A DNA stretch of 8,357 bases from a virus (Duplodnaviria > Heunggongvirae > Uroviricota > Caudoviricetes). Each line of letters begins with the position of its first letter. Positions within the stretch are counted from its first letter, which is position 1. A program made the position numbers and the translations under genes. The DNA lies in IMG/VR virus record IMGVR_UViG_3300029068_000009; one strand, written 5' to 3'. Shown piece by piece: positions 1-8,357 of the stretch. The notes beneath the pieces are model-generated. The model was given only the letters and a program-made list of their open reading frames with translations, had not been told where the DNA came from and searched no databases.

Positions 1-165
1 GCCACGGAATGGTCTGTGTTGTCGGGAGGATGCGTGATCTGATCCTTCAACTCAGCAAAAGTTCGATTTATTCAACAAAGCCCTTATGAGGCCGTAAAAA
101 CGACGCGGACACACAAAGCCCGACGGGAGAACCGAACTGCCGACCAGTTAAGCCAGTACGGGGCC

Positions 166-1509
166 GTGTCGTTACGTGAGCAGGCCCGTTACCTTGATAA
201 CAACCACGATCTGGTCATTGGTGTATTTGACAAGCTGGAAGAACGGGTGGTGGGGAAAAATGGGATTATTGTCGAGCCACATCCGGTATTACGCAATGGT
301 GCCATTGCCCGTGACCTGGCAGCGGAGATACGTACCCGATGGAGTGAATGGTCTGTCAGTCCGGAAGTCACCGGGCAGTTTACCCGTCCGATGCTGGAAC
401 GTCTGATGCTGCGTACCTGGCTGCGCGATGGTGAGGTGTTTGCCCAGATGGTTTCCGGGCGCATAAACAGCCTGACGCCTTCTGCCGGTGTTCATTTCTG
501 GCTGGAGGCGCTCGAGCCGGACTTTATTCCCATGACCAGTGATGAGAGCAACAGGCTGAATCAGGGCGTGTTTGTTGATGACTGGGGGCGTCCCGAAAAA
601 TATCTGGTGTATAAAAGTCGTCCTGTATCCAGACGGCAGATGGAAACCAAAGAAGTGGATGCAGAGCGAATGCTGCATCTTAAATTTGTTCGCCGTCTGC
701 ACCAGATGCGCGGGACGTCTTTATTGTCCGGTGTGCTGATCCGCCTCAGCGCCCTGAAAGAGTATGAAGATTCTGAGCTGACTGCAGCAAGGATCGCCGC
801 TGCTCTGGGGATGTACATCCGGAAAGGCGACGGACAGAGCTATGAAACGGATGGTAATGACAGCAAGGAGAACGAACGCGAGCTTACCATTCAGCCAGGC
901 ATTATTTACGACGATCTGAAACCCGGCGAAGAAATCGGAATGGTGAAGTCGGATCGTCCCAATCCTAACCTTGAAACTTTTCGTAATGGTCAGTTGCGTG
1001 CCGTGGCGGCGGGCAGTCGTCTGAGTTTTTCCAGTACGGCACGCAACTATAACGGCACTTACAGCGCCCAGCGTCAGGAACTGGTTGAGTCTACTGATGG
1101 CTACCTGATCCTGCAGGACTGGTTTATTGGTGCCGTCACCCGCCCGATGTATCGTGCCTGGCTGAAACAGGCTGTGGCATCCGGTGTTATCAGGCTACCC
1201 CGCGATCTTGACCGTTCTTCACTGTATACCGCGGTGTATTCCGGACCAGTGATGCCGTGGATTGACCCTGTTAAGGAGGCTGAGGCCTGGAAAATCCAGA
1301 TTCGTGGTGGAGCGGCGACAGAATCAGACTGGGTACGTGCTGGTGGTCGTAATCCGGATGATGTCAAACGTCGGCGCAAGGCCGAAATTGATGAAAACCG
1401 CAAGCTGGATCTGGTATTTGATACCGATCCGGCCAGTGATAAAGGAGGCAGCAGTGCCGCAACGAAACGACAGGAGCCGCAGCACACCGACGACCAGTCC
1501 GAAGAATAA
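166..1509 (+). CDS. Phage portal protein, lambda gpB family; 5' end uncertain
   Basis: 447-codon ORF immediately upstream of the protease/capsid gene, the usual portal position. Central segment GQLRAVAAGSRLSFSSTARNYNGTYSAQRQ resembles a lambda gpB segment as I recall it. First in-frame start is GTG at 166 with no obvious Shine-Dalgarno; the frame is open back to 43 (in-frame TGA at 40-42) with no ATG/GTG/TTG in between. Confidence 0.8.
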   Translation: MSLREQARYLDNNHDLVIGVFDKLEERVVGKNGIIVEPHPVLRNGAIARDLAAEIRTRWSEWSVSPEVTGQFTRPMLERLMLRTWLRDGEVFAQMVSGRINSLTPSAGVHFWLEALEPDFIPMTSDESNRLNQGVFVDDWGRPEKYLVYKSRPVSRRQMETKEVDAERMLHLKFVRRLHQMRGTSLLSGVLIRLSALKEYEDSELTAARIAAALGMYIRKGDGQSYETDGNDSKENERELTIQPGIIYDDLKPGEEIGMVKSDRPNPNLETFRNGQLRAVAAGSRLSFSSTARNYNGTYSAQRQELVESTDGYLILQDWFIGAVTRPMYRAWLKQAVASGVIRLPRDLDRSSLYTAVYSGPVMPWIDPVKEAEAWKIQIRGGAATESDWVRAGGRNPDDVKRRRKAEIDENRKLDLVFDTDPASDKGGSSAATKRQEPQHTDDQSEE

Positions 1510-3481
1510 TTCCTGGTTCAGGATGCAGGCTGGTCACCAGAGTGACGCGGATATTTATATTTATGACGAGATTGGTTTCTGGGGTGTTACAGCGAAGCAG
1601 TTTATCAGTGATCTGAATGCACTGGGCGATATCACCCACATTAATCTCCATATTAATTCACCGGGTGGCGATGTCTTTGAAGGCATCGCCATTTTTAATG
1701 CGCTGAAAACACATGGTGCGTCCATTACCGTTTATGTCGACGGTGTGGCGGCGTCAATGGCGTCGGTCATTGCGATGGTGGGAAACCCGGTCATTATGCC
1801 GGAAAACACTTTCATGATGATTCATAAACCATTTGGCTTTACGGGCGGTGATGCGGAGGACATGCGCACCTATGCCGACCTGCTCGATAAAGTTGAGGCG
1901 GTTCTGTTACCCGCTTATGCACAGAAAACCGGGAAAACCACCGATGAAATTGCTGCCATGCTGGCGGATGAGACCTGGATGTCCGGTGCCGAATGTCTGG
2001 CACATGGATTTGCTGATCAGGTAACGCCAGCCGTTAAGGCAATGGCATGTATTCAGTCAAAACGTACAGAGGAATTTAAAAAGATGCCGGAATCCATTCG
2101 AAACATGATTACTCCGCCACGCAACAGTGCTCCACGCGTACAGGATGATGAACCTGCAGCCTCCCGGACGCCAGTGCAGGCAGCAGCACCCGTGGTGGAT
2201 GAAAACAGTATCCGTGCGCAGGTACTGGCAGAGCAAAAAGCGCGTGTAAACGGTATTAATGATCTGTTTGCCATGTTTGGCGGGCGTTATCAGACGCTGC
2301 AGGCTCAGTGTCTTGCCGATCCTGAATGTTCGCTGGAGCAGGCCCGCGAAAAGCTGTTGAACGAGATGGGGCGCGAGTCCACGCCATCCAATAAAAATAC
2401 CCCGGCTCATATTTATGCCGGTAACGGTAATTTTGTGGGGGACGGGATCCGCCAGGCGCTGATGGCGCGTGCCGGATTTGAAAAAACCGAACGTGATAAT
2501 GTCTACAACGGGATGACCCTGCGTGAATATGCCCGTATGTCACTGACTGAACGGGGTATTGGGGTTTCCAGTTATAACCCGATGCAGATGGTCGGTGCGG
2601 CGTTCACACACAGTACGTCTGACTTCGGTAATATTCTGCTGGATGTTGCGAACAAAGCCATTCTGCAGGGCTGGGAAGATGCTCCTGAAACCTATGAACA
2701 GTGGACGCGGAAAGGTCAGTTGTCTGATTTTAAAATTGCCCATCGTGTGGGTATGGGGGGCTTCAGTGCTCTGCGTCAGGTGCGTGAAGGGGCGGAATAT
2801 AAATACGTCACCACCGGAGATAAACAGGCCACTATTGCACTGGCGACCTATGGCGAGCTGTTCAGTATCACCCGTCAGGCCATTATCAATGATGATCTGA
2901 ATATGCTGACCGATGTCCCGATGAAGCTGGGCCGTGCGGCGAAATCCACCATTGCCGATCTGGTTTATGCCATTCTGACGTCTAACCCGAAAATCTCCAC
3001 AGATAATGTAAGTCTGTTCGATAAAGCGAAACATGCAAACGTACTGGAGAGCGCTGCAATGGACGTGGCATCGCTGGATAAAGCCCGCCAGTTGATGCGC
3101 GTTCAGAAAGAGGGGGAGCGTCATCTGAATATTCGTCCTGCGTTCGTACTGGTACCGACGGCGATGGAGTCTGTTGCTAACCAGGTCATTCGCTCCTCAA
3201 GTGTCAAGGGGGCTGACATTAACGCCGGTATTATTAACCCGGTGAAAGATTTTGCGACCGTTATTGCAGAGCCTCGTCTTGATGATAACAGCCAGACCAC
3301 CTTCTACCTGGCTGCGTCCAAAGGCTCCGATACGATTGAAGTGGCTTATCTCAACGGTGTGGATACGCCATATATTGATCAGATGGAGGGCTTCAGTGTG
3401 GATGGCGTGACAACGAAAGTGCGTATTGACGCCGGTGTCGCGCCAGTTGATCACCGCGGTCTGGTGAAATGTACGGCGTAA
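1454..3481 (+). CDS. Tripartite head protein: ClpP-family (S14) prohead protease + scaffold-like linker + major capsid domain
   Basis: One uninterrupted ORF. N-terminal domain carries ClpP hallmarks: INSPGG; GVAASMAS with the putative catalytic Ser codon TCA at 1754-1756; MMIHKP with the His codon CAT at 1823-1825; a downstream acidic residue in LADETW. A middle charged/Ala-Gln-rich segment looks scaffold-like, and a C-terminal domain of about 400 aa sits where the major capsid protein belongs. Start chosen at GTG 1454, which has AGGAGG at 1443-1448 (5-nt spacer) and overlaps the portal 3' end by 56 nt; alternative start ATG 1523 has a weak RBS. Confidence 0.85.
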   Translation: MPQRNDRSRSTPTTSPKNNSWFRMQAGHQSDADIYIYDEIGFWGVTAKQFISDLNALGDITHINLHINSPGGDVFEGIAIFNALKTHGASITVYVDGVAASMASVIAMVGNPVIMPENTFMMIHKPFGFTGGDAEDMRTYADLLDKVEAVLLPAYAQKTGKTTDEIAAMLADETWMSGAECLAHGFADQVTPAVKAMACIQSKRTEEFKKMPESIRNMITPPRNSAPRVQDDEPAASRTPVQAAAPVVDENSIRAQVLAEQKARVNGINDLFAMFGGRYQTLQAQCLADPECSLEQAREKLLNEMGRESTPSNKNTPAHIYAGNGNFVGDGIRQALMARAGFEKTERDNVYNGMTLREYARMSLTERGIGVSSYNPMQMVGAAFTHSTSDFGNILLDVANKAILQGWEDAPETYEQWTRKGQLSDFKIAHRVGMGGFSALRQVREGAEYKYVTTGDKQATIALATYGELFSITRQAIINDDLNMLTDVPMKLGRAAKSTIADLVYAILTSNPKISTDNVSLFDKAKHANVLESAAMDVASLDKARQLMRVQKEGERHLNIRPAFVLVPTAMESVANQVIRSSSVKGADINAGIINPVKDFATVIAEPRLDDNSQTTFYLAASKGSDTIEVAYLNGVDTPYIDQMEGFSVDGVTTKVRIDAGVAPVDHRGLVKCTA

Positions 3482-3504
3482 ACGTCGCAGACAACAACTC
3501 TGAT

Positions 3505-3524
3505 GGCCCGTAAGGGCTTTTTTT
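3505..3524 (+). terminator. Putative weak intrinsic terminator or attenuator downstream of the capsid gene
   Basis: GCCC (3506-3509) pairs with GGGC (3514-3517) around a GNRA-type loop GTAA (3510-3513), followed by T7 (3518-3524). Lies 24 nt after the capsid-gene stop. The stem is only 4-5 bp. Confidence 0.4.
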
Positions 3525-3567
3525 GTACCTGAAATCAGCCTCTGAACGGGGCTGTGCGGAGACAGTT

Positions 3568-3891
3568 ATGGCAAAGAATTTTGTAGAAGAAGGAAAAACG
3601 GTGGCGATTGTTGCCAGTGCAGCCATCAGCAGCGGAGATCTGGTGCAGGTGGGTGATGTTTTTGCGGTGGCGCTGACCGATATTCCACAGGGTGAAACAG
3701 GCGACGGCATGACCGAAGGTGTGTTTATCCTGCCTAAACTGAAAACGGATGACATGAAAACGGGTAAGAAGGTTTATCTGAAGTCCGGAAAAGTTCAGCT
3801 GACTAACAGCGGCTCTGATCCGCTGGTCGGGGTTGTCTGGGCAGATGCCGGAACCAGTGCAGAAGAAGTGCCGGTAAAACTCAATGTCTGA
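3568..3891 (+). CDS. Small head protein, putative capsid decoration/cement protein (DUF2190-like)
   Basis: 107-aa ORF directly after the capsid gene. ATG 3568 is preceded by GGAG (3558-3561). Gly/Val-rich small beta-type protein; assignment is by position and general resemblance, not verified. The TTG at 3523 in the ORF track lies inside the T-tract and was not used. Confidence 0.55.
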   Translation: MAKNFVEEGKTVAIVASAAISSGDLVQVGDVFAVALTDIPQGETGDGMTEGVFILPKLKTDDMKTGKKVYLKSGKVQLTNSGSDPLVGVVWADAGTSAEEVPVKLNV

Positions 3892-4159
3892 TCCCTTTTC
3901 CCGGCTGGCAGCGCGTATGGATGCGATCACGGTCAGAAAGATGGGAAAGACAGCCTCGATTAATGATGTCGATATGGCTGTGATCCCGGGCGAAACACTG
4001 GCAGAGCTGAATGCTCTGTCCGGACCTGCGGTCTCTCTGGTGGTGTTTTCTTCGGGATACCGCCCACGGCGCGGGGATCGCGTTGTTTATGACGGACAAC
4101 AATGGACGGTCACACGGCATGAACGTTTTAACGGTAAGCCAATGATCTTTATTGAGTAA
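3884..4159 (+). CDS. Putative head-tail joining / head completion protein (positional analogue of lambda FII)
   Basis: 91-aa ORF whose ATG (3884-3886) overlaps the upstream stop (TGA 3889-3891) by 8 nt, indicating translational coupling. Sits between head genes and gpZ; function inferred from position and size only. Confidence 0.5.
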   Translation: MSDPFSRLAARMDAITVRKMGKTASINDVDMAVIPGETLAELNALSGPAVSLVVFSSGYRPRRGDRVVYDGQQWTVTRHERFNGKPMIFIE

Positions 4160-4170
4160 AGAGGTGTGGG

Positions 4171-4749
4171 ATGAAGGGGCTTGAGAATGCCATCCGCAAT
4201 CTGAACAGCCTTGATACCCGTATGGTGCCACAGGCCAGCGCATGGGCGATAAACCGTGTGGCACAGAAAGCGGTCTCGGTTGCCACCCGGCAGGTTGCCG
4301 GGAATACCGTTGCGGGAGATAACCAGGTGAAAGGGATCCCCCTGAAACTGGTACGTCAGCGTGTCCGGGTGTTTAAAGCCAGTCCGTCAGGAAAAATGAC
4401 GGCCAGGATCCGCGTTAACCGGGGCAATCTGCCCGCCATTAAGCTGGGGACAGCCCGGGTCAGACTGGCCCGGCGTGGTGGAAAACTGCAGTACCGTGGC
4501 AGTGTGCTGAAGGTGGGTAAATATCTTTTCCGGGATGCGTTTATTCAGCAACTGGCGAATGGTCGCTGGCATGTGATGCGGCGTATTGATGGCAAAAATC
4601 GTTACCCCATTGATGTGGTGAAAATCCCGCTTTCCGGACCGCTGACACAGGCATTTGAAGATGCCCGCGACCGCATCATTGCTGCGGAAATGCCGAAACA
4701 GCTGGGGTATGCACTGAAACAACAACTGAGGTTATGGCTGACCCGATGA
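4171..4749 (+). CDS. Z: Tail completion protein, lambda gpZ homologue
   Basis: 192 aa, the same length as lambda gpZ. Starts MKGLENAIRNLNSLD and contains VFKASP, NRGNLPAIKLGTAR, FRDAFIQQLANGRWHVMRR and GKNRYPIDVVKIP, matching lambda Z as I recall it. RBS GAGG at 4161-4164, 6 nt before ATG 4171. Confidence 0.85.
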   Translation: MKGLENAIRNLNSLDTRMVPQASAWAINRVAQKAVSVATRQVAGNTVAGDNQVKGIPLKLVRQRVRVFKASPSGKMTARIRVNRGNLPAIKLGTARVRLARRGGKLQYRGSVLKVGKYLFRDAFIQQLANGRWHVMRRIDGKNRYPIDVVKIPLSGPLTQAFEDARDRIIAAEMPKQLGYALKQQLRLWLTR

Positions 4750-5147
4750 ACCGACATACACAAATCCGCCAGGCCGTACTGGCACGCCTTCGGGAACAGT
4801 GTGGAGACAGCGCCACGTTTTTTGACGGGCTTCCGGCATTTATTGATGCGCAGGAACTGCCTGCCGTGGCGGTGTGGCTGAGTGATGCTCAGTACACCGG
4901 AAAAATGACGGATGAAGATGACTGGCAGGCTGTTCTGCATATTGCTGTCTTCATCCGGGCACAGGCACCGGATTCAGAGCTGGATATGTGGATGGAGAGC
5001 ACCATTTTCCCGGCCCTGAATGATATACCGGCACTTTCCGGACTCATCGACACCCTGATCCCTCTCGGTTTTAACTATCAACGTGATAATGAGATGGCCA
5101 CCTGGGCGATGGCGGAAATCACGTACCAGATCACGTACACGAATTAA
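4746..5147 (+). CDS. U: Tail terminator protein, lambda gpU homologue
   Basis: Contains ATFFDG, PAVAV, AQYTG, PDSELDMWMES, IPALS and ITYQITY, closely paralleling lambda gpU. Start placed at ATG 4746, which forms an ATGA overlap with the Z stop (4747-4749) as at the lambda Z/U junction and aligns with the lambda U N-terminus. The ORF-track start at ATG 4734 is an alternative. Confidence 0.88.
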   Translation: MNRHTQIRQAVLARLREQCGDSATFFDGLPAFIDAQELPAVAVWLSDAQYTGKMTDEDDWQAVLHIAVFIRAQAPDSELDMWMESTIFPALNDIPALSGLIDTLIPLGFNYQRDNEMATWAMAEITYQITYTN

Positions 5148-5158
5148 AGGAGGTGGCA

Positions 5159-5902
5159 ATGACCACACCAAATCCACTGGCAAAAACGAAAGGTGCGGGA
5201 ACGACGTTCTGGATGTACACCGGCAAGGGCGATGCGTTTGCGAACCCTTTATCGGACACTGACTGGCTGCGTCTTGCGATGGTGAAGGATCTGCAACCTG
5301 GCGAAATGACCGCTGATGCAGAAGATGACTCTTATCTCGATGATGAAGATGCAGACTGGAAAACGACAACCCAGGGGCAGAAATCCGTCGGTGATACTTC
5401 GGCGACGCTGGCCTGGCGTCCGGGTGACAGCGGGCAGAAAAAACTGGTTCAGTTGTTCGACTCCGGTGAAGTCTGCGCGTTTCGTATCAAATATCCCAAC
5501 GGCACTGTTGATGTTTTCCGTGGCTGGCTGAGCTCACTGGGTAAAACCATTGCCTCAAAAGACGTGATGACCCGCACAGTGAAAATCAGCGGTGTGGGGC
5601 GTCCGTATCTGGCAGAGGAAGGCACTGAAACAGTGAGCGTTACCGGGCTGACGGTGGCACCGGCATCTGCCAGTGTAAAAGTGGGAGCAACCACCACGCT
5701 GACCTTTACAGTAAAACCTGACGGAGCCAGTGACAAAGCGATCAGTGTGCATTCGACAGATCCACAGACTGCCACGGTGACCCTGAACGGGCTTGTGGCC
5801 ACGGTGAAAGGCGTGAAGCAGGGCAGTGTCAGCATTGTGGGCATGACTTCTGACGGCGATTTTGTGGCAGTGGCTGCGGTGGCTGTCAGCGCCGCAGGTT
5901 AA
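5159..5902 (+). CDS. V: Major tail tube protein, lambda gpV homologue, with C-terminal Ig-like domain
   Basis: Strong similarity to lambda gpV throughout: KGAGTT, ANPLSD, YLDDEDADW, GQGQKS, GDTS, LAW, PNGTVDVFRGW, TRTVK, GVGRP. ATG 5159 is preceded by GGAGG (5149-5153). C-terminal residues from about 161 form an Ig-like (Big_2-type) beta domain. Confidence 0.95.
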   Translation: MTTPNPLAKTKGAGTTFWMYTGKGDAFANPLSDTDWLRLAMVKDLQPGEMTADAEDDSYLDDEDADWKTTTQGQKSVGDTSATLAWRPGDSGQKKLVQLFDSGEVCAFRIKYPNGTVDVFRGWLSSLGKTIASKDVMTRTVKISGVGRPYLAEEGTETVSVTGLTVAPASASVKVGATTTLTFTVKPDGASDKAISVHSTDPQTATVTLNGLVATVKGVKQGSVSIVGMTSDGDFVAVAAVAVSAAG

Positions 5903-5922
5903 CAGGACGATACTCATCATTT

Positions 5923-5946
5923 GCCCCGGTTATCCGGGGCTTTTTT
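5923..5946 (+). terminator. Intrinsic (rho-independent) terminator between V and G
   Basis: Perfect 7-bp GC-rich stem, GCCCCGG (5923-5929) pairing with CCGGGGC (5934-5940), loop TTAT, followed by T6 (5941-5946). Lies 21 nt after the V stop. Confidence 0.7.
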
Positions 5947-5962
5947 GCAGGTGGAGAACATG

Positions 5963-6349
5963 ATGTTTCTGAAACAGGGCACGTTTAATTATGAAAAGCA
6001 GTCCGTGGTGCTCAGTGAGCTGTCCGGGCTGCAGAGAATTGAATATCTGGCGTTTGTTCAGCAGCGAACGGCAAAGTTTGATGCCGAAGAGGGAGAACTG
6101 CCGGAGGCTGAACGACAGATTGCTTTTCTGCGGATGGGGATGGATATCAATGCCTGGCTGGTTTCCCGCTCACTGTGGAATGCGGAACAGTCTCAGGATG
6201 TTGAGACGCTTTGCGCATCCGTTATTACAACATGGTCGTATGATGCCCTGGGAGCGGGGGCGGAGATGGTTCTGTCGCTGAGCGGTATGGGAGCCATTGA
6301 GAATGCCGGGGATTTGGAGCATGAGGTGCTGACGCCGGAAAAGTCCTGA
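5963..6349 (+). CDS. G: Tail assembly chaperone, lambda gpG homologue
   Basis: Starts MFLKQG as lambda gpG starts MFLK, and contains LSELSGLQRIEYLAF resembling lambda G LSELSALQRIEHLAL. ATG 5963 is preceded by GGAG (5953-5956). The TTG start at 5921 in the ORF track lies inside the terminator hairpin and was rejected. Confidence 0.85.
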   Translation: MFLKQGTFNYEKQSVVLSELSGLQRIEYLAFVQQRTAKFDAEEGELPEAERQIAFLRMGMDINAWLVSRSLWNAEQSQDVETLCASVITTWSYDALGAGAEMVLSLSGMGAIENAGDLEHEVLTPEKS

Positions 6350-6678
6350 CGCGGGAAATGCAGTTTGTCATGCGGCTTGCCCGGGAGTTCCGGCGGGCAG
6401 ACTGGCGGCGGATGCTGTCGGAAATGTCGGCCACTGAGCTTGGTGAGTGGGGCGATTATTTCCGGATGCAGAGCTTCAGTGATGTGTGGATGGATGCGCA
6501 GTTTGCCTCGCTGAAGGCATTGATCGTGAGAATGGTGTCCGGTAGCAGTGATGCTGCGGTGGCTGATTTCAGCCTTTTACCGGAAGAGAACGGGATACCG
6601 GAGCGAACGGACGAAGAACTGATGCATCTTGGGGAAGGTATTTCCGGAGGTGTGCGTTATGGACCAGACATCCGGTAA
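5963..6678 (+). CDS. T: gpGT tail assembly chaperone fusion made by programmed -1 ribosomal frameshift from G into the T frame
   Basis: The T ORF is in the -1 frame relative to G, opens at 6325 (after the T-frame TGA at 6322-6324) and overlaps the last 25 nt of G. This is the same arrangement as lambda G/T. Putative slip site G GAA AAG at 6337-6343. T-frame stop TAA at 6676-6678. Confidence 0.75.
6337..6343 (+). other. Putative -1 frameshift slippery heptamer G GAA AAG
   Basis: It is the only A-rich slippery-type sequence inside the 22-nt window (6325-6346) where both the G and T frames are open. It differs by one base from the lambda heptamer G GGA AAG. Confidence 0.55.
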
Positions 6679-7921
6679 GAAAAAAACACGCGAACCCCGT
6701 AATGATGAGGCCACCCGGTTATTGCTGCAGTACAGTCAGCAACAGGCACAGGTGGAAGGACAGATTGCTGCTGCCAGACAGTCAGCAGGCATTGCCACGG
6801 AAAGGATGACAGAAGCGCATAAACAGCTTCTGGCTCTGCAGCAGCGCATCAGCGACCTGGACGGGAAAAAACTGACGGCAGATGAAAAGAGTGTGCTGGC
6901 CCGTAAAGATGAACTGATTCAGGCACTGACGCTGCTGGATGTAAAACAGCAGGAGCTTCAGAAACAGACGGCACTCAACGAGCTGAAGAAAAAAACAATT
7001 CAGCTGACCAGTCAACTGGCTGAAGAAGAGCGCGCTCAGCGTCAGCAACATGACCTGGATATCGCCACGGTGGGTATGGGTGATCAGCAGCGGCAGCGAT
7101 ATCAGGTACAACTGAGTCTTCGCCAGAAATACCAGCAACAGCTGGAGCAGTTGAGGCGGGATAGTGAGCAGAAAGGAACATATAACACGGATGACTACAG
7201 AAAGGCCGAGCAGGCGCTGACGGAGAGCCTGAACCGACAACTGAATGAGAATCGCCGTTACTGGCAACAGCTTGAAGTTGTGCAGGGTAACTGGAAAAAC
7301 GGAGTCCTGCGTGCATTTCAGGATTTTACCGTGGATGCAGATAATACGGCAGGAACAGCAGAACAGGTGTTCTCGTCAGCCTTCAGCAACATGGGAAATG
7401 GCCTGGCAACTTTTGTCACTACCGGCAAACTCAATTTCAAATCCTTCACCTCTTCTGTGCTGTCAGATATGGCGAAAATCCTGGCGCAGGCAACCATGAT
7501 GAAATCGATAAAAGGGATTGGCAGTGTACTGGGATTTGATCTCAGCAGCCTTTCCCTGAATGCCAATGGGGGGATTTATCAGTCTGCTGATTTGAGTCGT
7601 TACAGTGGCACGGTGGTTAACCGTCCGACGTTTTTTGCTTTTGCAAAAGGCGCGGGTGTGATGGGGGAAGCGGGACCTGAAGCCATTCTGCCTCTGCGTC
7701 GTGGTGCTGACGGTAAGCTGGGGGTTGTGGCGGATATTGGTGGTTCAGGTATGGCGATGTTTGCCCCGCAGTACAACATCGAGATCAATAACGATGGCAC
7801 GAACGGGCAGATAGGTCCGGCTGCCCTGAAGGTGGTTTATGACCTTGGGAAAAAAGCGGCAGCGGACTTTATGCAACAGCAGGCCCGTGATGGTGGTCGG
7901 TTAAGTGGAGCATATCGGTAA
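6659..7921 (+). CDS. H: Tail tape measure protein, lambda gpH homologue, short (420 aa)
   Basis: ATG 6659 is preceded by GGAGG (6646-6650) and overlaps the T ORF end as in lambda. N-terminal part is Gln/Glu/Arg-rich and coiled-coil-like. The C-terminal part matches the lambda gpH C-terminus, including INNDGTNGQIGPAALK (VYD) and a final RDGG motif. Stop TAA 7919-7921 shares one base with the M start. Confidence 0.85.
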   Translation: MDQTSGKKKTREPRNDEATRLLLQYSQQQAQVEGQIAAARQSAGIATERMTEAHKQLLALQQRISDLDGKKLTADEKSVLARKDELIQALTLLDVKQQELQKQTALNELKKKTIQLTSQLAEEERAQRQQHDLDIATVGMGDQQRQRYQVQLSLRQKYQQQLEQLRRDSEQKGTYNTDDYRKAEQALTESLNRQLNENRRYWQQLEVVQGNWKNGVLRAFQDFTVDADNTAGTAEQVFSSAFSNMGNGLATFVTTGKLNFKSFTSSVLSDMAKILAQATMMKSIKGIGSVLGFDLSSLSLNANGGIYQSADLSRYSGTVVNRPTFFAFAKGAGVMGEAGPEAILPLRRGADGKLGVVADIGGSGMAMFAPQYNIEINNDGTNGQIGPAALKVVYDLGKKAAADFMQQQARDGGRLSGAYR

Positions 7922-8250
7922 TGGAGACGTTTCACTGGAAAGTGCGCCCGGATATGAATGTGGTATCAGAGCCGAAAGTGGTGACAGTGAAGCTGGGCGA
8001 TGGTTATGAACAGCGTCGTGCGGCGGGACTGAATAACCAGTTGTCGACTTACAGCGTGACGATACGTGTTCGTAAATGTGAACACCCATCTTTAAAAGCC
8101 TTTCTGGAACGGCACGGTGGCGTCCGCGCATTTCAGTGGACGCCACCTTATGACTGGAAACCGATTAGGGTGGTTTGTCGTAAATGGTCGGCAAGCGTGG
8201 GGGCGCTGTGGGTAACCATAACGGCAGATTTTGAACAGGTCGTGGCATAG
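7921..8250 (+). CDS. M: Minor tail protein (tail tip assembly), lambda gpM homologue
   Basis: 109 aa, the same length as lambda gpM. Contains FHWKVRPDM, GDGYEQR, TYSV, ERHGG, WTPPYDW, CRKWS and ADFEQVV, closely paralleling lambda M. TAATG overlap with the H stop. Confidence 0.92.
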   Translation: METFHWKVRPDMNVVSEPKVVTVKLGDGYEQRRAAGLNNQLSTYSVTIRVRKCEHPSLKAFLERHGGVRAFQWTPPYDWKPIRVVCRKWSASVGALWVTITADFEQVVA

Positions 8251-8259
8251 GAGGCTCTG

Positions 8260-8357
8260 ATGCAGGATATTCCACAGGAAACACATCATGAGACGACACG
8301 CCTCACTCAGTCAGCCCAGGTGGTGCTCTGGGAAATCGATCTGACAGAGGTCGGTGG
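8260..8357 (+). CDS. L: Minor tail protein, lambda gpL homologue; 5' fragment that runs off the window
   Basis: AGGAGG (8249-8254) lies 5 nt before ATG 8260. The translation MQDIPQETHHETTRLTQSAQVVLWEIDLTEVG matches the lambda gpL N-terminus. Open to the end of the window. Confidence 0.88.
   Translation, partial: MQDIPQETHHETTRLTQSAQVVLWEIDLTEVG

What the first reader, a model, noticed from the sequence alone, without database searches (positions are those of the whole stretch)
6659..7921. Tape measure protein is about half the length of lambda gpH in an otherwise intact lambda-type tail module
H here is 420 aa against 853 aa for lambda gpH. The conserved C-terminal region is present and the start context (SD, overlap with T) and the downstream M junction are intact, so the missing length is internal or N-proximal, not a crude truncation. 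Tape measure length sets tail length at roughly 0.15 nm per residue, which would predict a tail of about 60-65 nm, roughly half that of lambda. The alternative is an in-frame deletion accumulated in a decaying prophage. Either reading bears on whether this element can make functional virions.
Basis: partly seen in the sequence, partly recalled or inferred. Interest (0 to 1): 0.5.

Follow-up and report, generated by a model that had tools for sequence, protein, structure and literature searches.

The report
Deleted tape-measure gene in decaying prophage
The short tail "ruler" gene is the normal 1021-residue gene of a common E. coli prophage that recently lost its first 601 codons, in a prophage that also has a broken portal gene, so this is ordinary prophage decay and not a new short-tailed phage.

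Summary
The ORF at 6659-7921 (420 aa) is real. It is not a short tape-measure lineage. It is the 1021-aa tape measure of mEp460/cdtI-type lambdoid E. coli prophages minus exactly 1803 bp (residues 4-604). The junction at window 6668|6669 is blunt and in frame. The deletion removes the conserved N-terminus, the Pfam TMP_2 domain and the only hydrophobic segment. It also rewrites the last residues of T.

The deleted segment is present in 1829 of 5426 complete E. coli genomes. The junction is present in none of them. Every isolated phage relative I checked has 1018-1021 aa. The exact allele occurs only in a few human-gut metagenome contigs. Those contigs come from independent assemblies and agree 100% across the junction, so the deletion is real.

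The same contig carries two more lesions. An IS903 end (window 1-82) cuts the portal gene after nt 82. About 800 nt beyond the window, a 65-bp frameshifting deletion truncates gene K. Everything else is 99.9% identical to intact prophages. The best reading is a recent private lesion in a decaying prophage, and the protein very probably cannot work as a ruler.

Side observation: one TA dinucleotide in this gene (window 7075-7076, intact here) is a recurrent, two-sided deletion breakpoint in other E. coli prophages. I could not explain it.

The parts
1..82 (-). Terminal 82 nt of an IS903-type (IS5 family) insertion sequence. The terminal inverted repeat GGCTTTGTTGAATAAATC reads leftward from position 82.
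   Evidence: 100% identical to IS903/IS5-family transposase regions in thousands of plasmids. Homology to the prophage starts only at window 83. Other contigs carrying the same junction extend a further 37-45 nt into the IS and then stop.
83..1509 (+). Portal gene remnant. It lacks its first 82 nt (27 codons plus 1 nt) and its start codon. The 447-aa ORF at 166-1509 begins at an internal GTG.
   Evidence: The intact relative has a 502-aa portal at L002 2919-4427, and window 83 corresponds to L002 3001. Pfam Phage_portal_2 matches both forms.
1454..3481 (+). ClpP-like prohead protease / major capsid fusion gene (675 aa), intact.
   Evidence: Same length as in the intact prophage L002. No nucleotide difference from L002 falls inside it.
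4171..6349 (+). Tail genes Z (4171-4749), U (4746-5147), V with a C-terminal Big_2 domain (5159-5902) and G (5963-6349). All are intact.
   Evidence: Pfam assignments on the identical contig L003. Collinear with L002 at 99.92% identity. The only differences here are two synonymous changes.
6358..6678 (+). T reading frame (the -1 frame extension of G). Its C-terminus is rewritten by the deletion: ...GPDIR* (106 aa) in place of ...GPDSQPGH* (109 aa).
   Evidence: Translation compared with mEp460. The 106-aa form is found only in JGI/ENA metagenome contigs.
6645..6651 (+). Shine-Dalgarno sequence GGAGGTG of gene H, unchanged from the parent.
   Evidence: Sequence read. It is identical to L002 at the corresponding position.
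6659..7921 (+). Tape-measure gene H carrying a deletion of codons 4-604. It encodes 420 aa in place of 1021.
   Evidence: Residues 5-420 are 100% identical to residues 606-1021 of the full-length protein of L002.
6668..6669 (.). Deletion junction. Window 6668 corresponds to L002 9586 and window 6669 to L002 11390. 1803 bp (601 codons) are missing, with no microhomology and no inserted bases.
   Evidence: BLAST and direct comparison of both parental flanks. The junction is identical in three independently assembled contigs, L003, L004 and L005.
6701..6934 (+). Retained TMP_4 domain (residues 15-92).
   Evidence: Pfam PF24622, E 5e-17.
7286..7510 (+). Retained Tape_meas_lam_C domain (residues 210-284).
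   Evidence: Pfam PF09718, E 9e-23.
7921..8250 (+). Gene M (109 aa), intact. Its start overlaps the H stop codon.
   Evidence: The segment is 100% identical to L002.
7075..7076 (.). TA dinucleotide (in gggTAtggg, at codons G139/M140 of this H, equal to G740/M741 of the full protein). It is intact in the window but is a recurrent deletion breakpoint in other E. coli prophages. This is a side observation.

Best explanation
The window is the head-tail module of an mEp460/cdtI-type lambdoid prophage of E. coli, taken from a human gut metagenome, and the prophage is in an early stage of decay. Gene H suffered one illegitimate-recombination event. That event removed 1803 bp starting 10 nt after the start codon and happened to preserve the reading frame (shown). 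The product keeps M-D-Q and then resumes at residue 605 of the parental 1021-aa tape measure (shown). It therefore retains the C-terminal half, which in lambda docks in the tail tip (inferred from lambda). It has lost the conserved N-terminal segment, the TMP_2 domain, the only strongly hydrophobic segment and about 60% of the ruler (shown). My inference is that if the late operon is still transcribed the protein is made, since the ribosome-binding site and the coupling to T and M are intact. At most it would nucleate tail tips and short tubes of about 60-65 nm (roughly 16 rings). It would not give correctly terminated, infectious tails. In any case the prophage cannot form virions on its own, because an IS903 copy has cut the portal gene and gene K carries a frameshifting 65-bp deletion (both shown). 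The near identity of everything else to intact prophages means these lesions are recent and private to one strain lineage (inferred).
For: The deletion is mapped to the base against mEp460 and against a 99.9-100% identical intact prophage.

The parental gene is 3066 nt in E. coli DETEC-E601, mEp460, Ayreon and Tritos, and 3057 nt in cdtI.

No record among 20,395 spans the junction. The deleted segment is present at >=80% coverage in 1829 of 5426 genomes.

The exact 420-aa protein is found only in JGI, ENA and Logan metagenome contigs, not in NCBI isolates. Independent assemblies of runs ERR525704 and ERR525705 and of SAMEA2579921 agree 100% across a junction that has no shared k-mer.

Pfam TMP_2 is present in the parent (residues 228-426) and in lambda gpH (54-256) but absent here. 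The parental N-terminus (2-56) aligns with lambda 3-57, and the only hydrophobic segment (286-306) is the counterpart of lambda 113-138. Both are deleted. The lambda segment 116-140 is the favoured membrane-spanning candidate of gpH (PMC12617516).

In TP901-1 every N-terminal tape-measure deletion tested abolished plaque formation and lysogenisation. The N-terminal 154 residues and the first hydrophobic region are required (PMC5099701).

IS903 interrupts the portal gene. A 65-bp deletion between GGTCTGCC repeats truncates K to 79 of 247 aa on contig L003.

Only 5 substitutions separate window 83-6668 from L002, and 4 of them are synonymous.

Other independent tape-measure deletion alleles exist in defective E. 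coli prophages, for example P0069, which lacks residues 199-641 and sits beside a PerC-Z fusion.
Against: The deletion is in frame and leaves the start, the ribosome-binding site and the coupling to M untouched. Selection for a working protein would also give that result. By chance alone an in-frame outcome has a probability of about one in three.

Lambda H mutants with internal in-frame deletions make proportionally shorter tails (Katsura and Hendrix 1984 and Katsura 1987, as cited in PMC1796659). Shortening as such is therefore tolerated.

gpG binds multiple regions of gpH (PMC5009743), so some chaperone binding may survive.

Loss of function of this particular protein is inferred from homologues and was not tested.

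All contigs end inside the IS. It is therefore unknown whether the 5' end of the portal gene and the terminase genes lie just beyond it.

The K lesion is seen close to the end of one scaffold only.
Confidence: 0.88

Rival explanations
1. The 420-aa protein is still an assembly-competent ruler. If the late genes are expressed, or the gene is rescued by recombination into an intact relative, it directs tails about 40% of normal length.
For: The frame is preserved. Translation signals and the junctions with T and M are intact. The C-terminal domains that dock in the lambda tail tip are kept. Lambda, TM4 and TP901-1 tolerate internal tape-measure deletions and make proportionally shorter tails.
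Against: This deletion is not internal. It removes the N-terminus, TMP_2 and the hydrophobic segment. In TP901-1 all N-terminal deletions and loss of the first hydrophobic region abolished infectivity. The allele is absent from all isolated phages and complete genomes. The host element has lost portal and K function.
Confidence: 0.07
2. This is a normal member of a naturally short-tailed lambdoid lineage whose tape measure is about 420 aa.
Against: Both flanks of the junction are 99.9-100% identical to prophages with a 1021-aa gene. No relative has a complete short gene. The one candidate, P0093 (435 aa), is the downstream half of a full-length gene interrupted by a TAG codon. Other short database entries are fragments at contig ends.
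Confidence: 0.02
3. The junction is an assembly artefact from collapsing or mis-joining prophage copies in a metagenome.
For: E. coli genomes usually hold several related tail modules (median 2 places per genome). One contig (L006) stops exactly at the left breakpoint, which suggests a branch in that assembly graph.
Against: The two parental flanks share no bases at the junction, so a k-mer graph cannot join them without reads that span it. The same junction was recovered by different assemblers from different runs with 100% identity.
Confidence: 0.02

Closest known systems
Tape measure protein gp13 of phage mEp460 (YP_007112087.1), and the identical-length proteins of E. coli prophages (for example WP_000371999.1) and of phages Ayreon, Tritos and cdtI
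   Same: Residues 5-420 of the window protein match residues 606-1021 at 99-100% identity. The flanking G, T and M genes are the same, as are the start codon and ribosome-binding site.
   Different: The window protein lacks residues 4-604: the N-terminal segment, the TMP_2 domain and the hydrophobic segment. T ends in a different pentapeptide.
Lambda gpH (853 aa)
   Same: Same family and same gene position. Tape_meas_lam_C and the C-terminal tail align (window 46-420 with lambda 491-853). The full-length parent aligns with lambda over its whole length.
   Different: Only about 27% identity. The equivalent of roughly lambda residues 4-450, including TMP_2 (54-256) and the 116-140 hydrophobic stretch, is missing.
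[quoted passage not shown]
   Same: An in-frame loss of ruler length, with an expected proportional shortening of the tail (about 0.15 nm per residue).
   Different: The viable laboratory mutants carry internal deletions. This deletion removes the N-terminal end, which was essential in TP901-1. It arose naturally in an element with other lethal lesions.
Other natural tape-measure deletion alleles in defective E. coli prophages (for example P0069/L021; fusions P0076, P0101-P0103, P0110, P0115)
   Same: Illegitimate deletions with one or both ends in the same gene, within prophages that carry several lesions.
   Different: The breakpoints differ. The window's junction has no microhomology and does not use the recurrent TA breakpoint at codon 740/741.

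Membership tests
Lambda-family tail tape measure protein (gpH type) | C-terminal Tape_meas_lam_C domain | tested here: met
   PF09718 at residues 210-284, 80.5 bits against a cut-off of 23.
Lambda-family tail tape measure protein (gpH type) | N-terminal TMP_2 domain, shared by lambda gpH and the parental protein | tested here: not met
   PF06791 is found in lambda (54-256) and in the mEp460 protein (228-426) but not in the window protein.
Lambda-family tail tape measure protein (gpH type) | Gene located between the G/T chaperone genes and gene M | tested here: met
   Gene order G, T, H, M, L with matching Pfam assignments.
Lambda-family tail tape measure protein (gpH type) | Full-length collinearity with functional family members | tested here: not met
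   Residues 4-604 of 1021 are absent.
Lambda-family tail tape measure protein (gpH type) | Sets tail length and supports infection | not testable with these tools
   This needs induction or engineering followed by electron microscopy and plaque assay.
Defective (cryptic) prophage | Inactivating lesions in genes essential for virion formation | tested here: met
   The portal gene is cut by IS903 after nt 82. H lacks 601 codons. K is truncated to 79 of 247 aa on contig L003.
Defective (cryptic) prophage | Integrated in a bacterial chromosome and unable to yield plaques | not testable with these tools
   All contigs end in the IS on one side and in tail genes on the other. No host flank and no phenotype are available.
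Domesticated flexible-tail bacteriocin (F-type tailocin) | Tail module kept without head genes and maintained under selection | tested here: not met
   The protease-capsid, decoration and head-completion genes are all present and 99.9% identical to those of intact phages. The tail gene K is broken.

The most novel reading that the evidence does not exclude
The N-terminally deleted, 420-aa tape measure still nucleates and measures tails, so that this element, or a recombinant that acquires the allele, makes flexible tails of about 60-65 nm. That would be a natural demonstration that the N-terminal 60% of a lambda-family ruler, including TMP_2 and the hydrophobic segment, is dispensable for assembly.
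Probability: 0.04. Interest if true: 0.4.

Novelty: already known. Interest (0 to 1): 0.12.

Why it matters
The finding matters little on its own. It documents the first steps of prophage decay caught in a gut population: an IS hit, one large deletion and one small deletion on an otherwise pristine module. It also shows that an intact-looking short tape-measure ORF should be compared with its own lineage and not with lambda before any tail length is inferred.

The allele could serve as a ready-made design for testing whether the N-terminal 60% of a lambda-family ruler is needed.

The side observation may be of more general interest. Many independent deletions in E. coli prophages break at one TA dinucleotide of this gene. 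This could point to a site-specific cut or to a mobile element that shapes cryptic prophages such as Rac and Qin.

Tried and rejected
1. Exact-match search for the junction in genome contigs and viral contigs gave no hit. The junction was found only through the exact-protein look-up.

2. P0093 (435 aa) looked like a natural short tape measure. tblastn showed it is the distal ORF of a gene of about 1050 aa interrupted by a TAG codon. Other short entries (P0047, P0079, P0080 and others) are fragments at contig ends or start at internal codons.

3. I could not read Xu et al. 2014 (PMC3907469) on G/GT binding sites in gpH, because it is not held. I used the summary in PMC5009743 instead.

4. For the TA hot spot I tested four ideas.
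- An element still inserted at the site. The left-junction pattern gave 0 hits in viral contigs and only unrelated genes in metagenome contigs. The right-junction pattern found only two more deletion alleles. All 17 phage records are intact at the site.
- A contig edge next to the site being an IS end. It is a lysis-region ORF.
- A local DNA hairpin. It is not significant, with z = -1.27.
- A pseudo-cos site. This could not be assessed, because the mEp460 record starts at the terminase gene and not at cos.

5. I considered an IS903-mediated adjacent deletion as the cause of the H deletion and rejected it, because no IS sequence lies at the junction.

Full report
**Observation**

ATG at 6659 and TAA at 7919-7921 give 420 codons. 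A GGAGGTG ribosome-binding site lies 7 nt upstream. The ORF overlaps the T frame (6358-6678) by 20 nt, and the M start codon overlaps the H stop.

The protein carries Pfam TMP_4 (residues 15-92) and Tape_meas_lam_C (210-284). Residues 46-420 align with lambda gpH 491-853.

**What it is**

Megablast against 5426 complete E. coli genomes and against phage records showed that homology to tape-measure genes begins abruptly at window 6669. The sequence to the left of that point matches the same records about 1.8 kb further upstream.

I aligned the window to phage mEp460 (L001) and to the closest intact prophage, E. coli DETEC-E601 (L002).
- Window 83-6668 equals L002 3001-9586 at 99.92% identity.
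- Window 6669-8357 equals L002 11390-13078 at 100% identity.

The window therefore lacks L002 9587-11389. That is 1803 bp, or 601 codons. The deletion begins 10 nt after the H start codon. The two parental flanks share no bases at the junction, and nothing is inserted there.

The parental gene is 3066 nt (1021 aa) in DETEC-E601, mEp460, Ayreon and Tritos. It is 3057 nt in cdtI. The window protein is M-D-Q followed by residues 605-1021 of that protein. Because T overlaps the start of H, the deletion also changes the end of T from ...GPDSQPGH to ...GPDIR.

**Is the deletion real, and how common is it?**

No record in the complete-genome collection spans the junction. The deleted segment is present in 1829 of 5426 genomes. 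That is about as many genomes as carry the retained part.

The junction was not found in one-genome-per-species contigs or in IMG/VR.

The exact 420-aa protein is on record only in metagenome assemblies (JGI, ENA, Logan). The samples are runs ERR525704 and ERR525705 of PRJEB6456, the Backhed infant-gut study, and SAMEA2579921. Contigs L003, L004 and L005 come from different assemblers and are 100% identical to the window across the junction. The flanks share no k-mer, so a graph mis-join is not a credible source. The allele is real but private to one strain lineage.

**Other lesions**

The window's first 82 nt do not belong to the prophage. They are 100% identical to the end of IS903 (IS5 family). 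They abut the portal gene at its nucleotide 83. The 447-aa "portal" ORF is therefore an internal GTG-initiated remnant of a 502-aa gene.

Contig L003 extends about 900 nt beyond the window. There, gene K has a 65-bp deletion between GGTCTGCC repeats. This shifts the frame and ends the protein at 79 of 247 residues. Seven other loci keep the segment.

Apart from these lesions the module is pristine. There are five substitutions in 6.6 kb relative to L002. Four are synonymous and one is a Gly-to-Arg change in the portal remnant. All other genes have full length. The lesions are therefore recent.

**Functional inference**

The full-length parent aligns with lambda gpH end to end: residues 2-56 with lambda 3-57, and 289-1021 with lambda 122-853. 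It shares lambda's TMP_2 domain.

The deletion removes three things:
- the conserved N-terminal segment;
- the TMP_2 domain;
- the only strongly hydrophobic stretch (residues 286-306). This is the counterpart of lambda 113-138, which has been proposed as the membrane-spanning part of ejected gpH (PMC12617516).

In lambda the C-terminal helix of gpH sits in the tip on the gpI trimer, and the rest fills the tube of 32 gpV rings (PMC10721106).

Internal in-frame deletions in lambda H, TM4 gp17 and TP901-1 TMP give shorter tails. In TP901-1, however, every N-terminal deletion abolished infectivity, and so did loss of the first hydrophobic region (PMC5099701).

From these homologues I infer that this protein may still enter tip complexes. 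It might template a tube of about 63 nm (420 x 0.15 nm, roughly 16 rings by lambda's 853 aa per 32 rings), against about 153 nm for the parent. I do not expect it to give terminated, infectious tails. This step is inference and was not shown here. Independently of it, the element cannot make virions without a portal and gene K.

**Alternatives**

- A natural short-tail lineage is excluded by the base-perfect flanks and by the lack of any complete short homologue. The one candidate, P0093 at 435 aa, is the downstream half of a gene interrupted by a nonsense codon.
- An assembly artefact is unlikely, for the reasons given above.
- Residual assembly competence cannot be excluded without an experiment.

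Deletions ending in this gene are common in defective prophages. Protein searches returned an independent in-frame deletion (P0069, lacking residues 199-641, next to a PerC-Z fusion). They also returned many fusions of upstream genes to the tape-measure C-terminus.

**Side observation: a deletion hot spot**

Among those fusions I noticed a hot spot. I found seven alleles with sequenced junctions that join different upstream points to the same base of the tape-measure gene. An eighth allele (P0102, a third terminase-A fusion) shows the same join at the protein level.

The seven sequenced upstream points are:
- a lysis-region ORF;
- the Nu1-like DUF1441 gene;
- two points in terminase A;
- two points in portal;
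- one point in Z.

At least three further alleles join the gene up to that same point to different downstream genes: K, J and the side fibre.

For nine of the ten sequenced junctions a parental partner sequence was available to compare. In all nine, the junction is a precise exchange at the TA of gggTAtggg. This is L002 11796-11797, window 7075-7076, codons 740/741. For the DUF1441 allele and the side-fibre allele the partner parent was not recovered, so the shared TA there is read from the product only.

The tape-measure alleles involved are 87-99.8% identical to one another, so the events are independent. One of the rightward junctions lies in a Qin-like remnant.

The pattern fits a fixed staggered break or an element that duplicates TA on insertion, followed by one-sided loss and joining at the TA. 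IS-excision-enhancer-dependent deletions next to IS elements are a known analogue (PMC9943667).

I found no inserted element and no nuclease. The local hairpin is not significant. The window itself is intact at this site, and its own deletion does not use it.

**Verdict**

The interpretation as a deletion in a decaying prophage is supported, and the short-tail-lineage reading is refuted. This is a known kind of event in a known gene, and the interest is low.

Noticed in passing
window 7075-7076 (intact here); related loci L009, L010, L013, L016-L019, L032, L034, L035: One TA dinucleotide of the tape-measure gene (gggTAtggg, codons 740/741 of the full protein) is a recurrent, two-sided deletion breakpoint in E. 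coli prophages. Seven sequenced alleles, plus one seen only at the protein level, join different upstream genes to it. At least three alleles join it to different downstream genes. In all nine junctions with a comparable parent, the join is a precise exchange at a shared TA. No inserted element or nuclease was found.
   Followed up: partly
window 1-82 and 83-1509: An IS903 (IS5 family) end abuts the portal gene at its nucleotide 83. The 447-aa portal ORF is a GTG-initiated remnant of a 502-aa gene. All contigs carrying it stop inside the IS, so the other side of the insertion is unknown.
   Followed up: yes
L003 9120-9200 (about 800 nt right of the window end, same contig): A 65-bp deletion between GGTCTGCC direct repeats frameshifts tail gene K, giving 79 aa in place of 247. 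Seven related loci keep the segment.
   Followed up: yes
window 6358-6678: The H deletion also rewrites the C-terminus of the T frame (SQPGH becomes IR; 106 aa against 109 aa). This would change the gpGT chaperone as well.
   Followed up: yes
L006 (ENA ERZ27239353 k119_507), right end: This contig carries the IS-portal junction and stops exactly at the left breakpoint of the H deletion (L002 9586). That suggests a branch in the assembly graph, for example a second prophage copy or strain with the intact gene in the same sample.
   Followed up: no
L034 (Logan SRR31599027) and L032 (Rac-like region, GCA_002468185.1): These are 'condensed' prophage remnants with many internal deletions in a row. 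L034 has five junctions in 4.4 kb, each with 1-2 nt of microhomology, and several of the junctions create fused ORFs.
   Followed up: partly
L016 and L017, junction at L002 12624/12625 (window about 7903/7904): Two alleles with different left partners share a second breakpoint four codons before the end of H. One joins it to the C-terminal part of J and the other to a DUF4376-containing ORF. I did not compare whether the downstream sequences are the same.
   Followed up: no
window 6669-6827: A 159-bp stretch is 100% identical to an unannotated region near the end of the Aeromonas phage AP1 record (MT713136.1, 251326-251484). This is probably contamination or a chimeric end in that record.
   Followed up: no
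window 6335-6360: The G to T shift into the -1 frame must occur at CCG GAA AAG TCC TGA. This offers only an A-AAG lysine slip and not lambda's G-GGA-AAG heptamer. The sequence is identical in the intact relatives.
   Followed up: no
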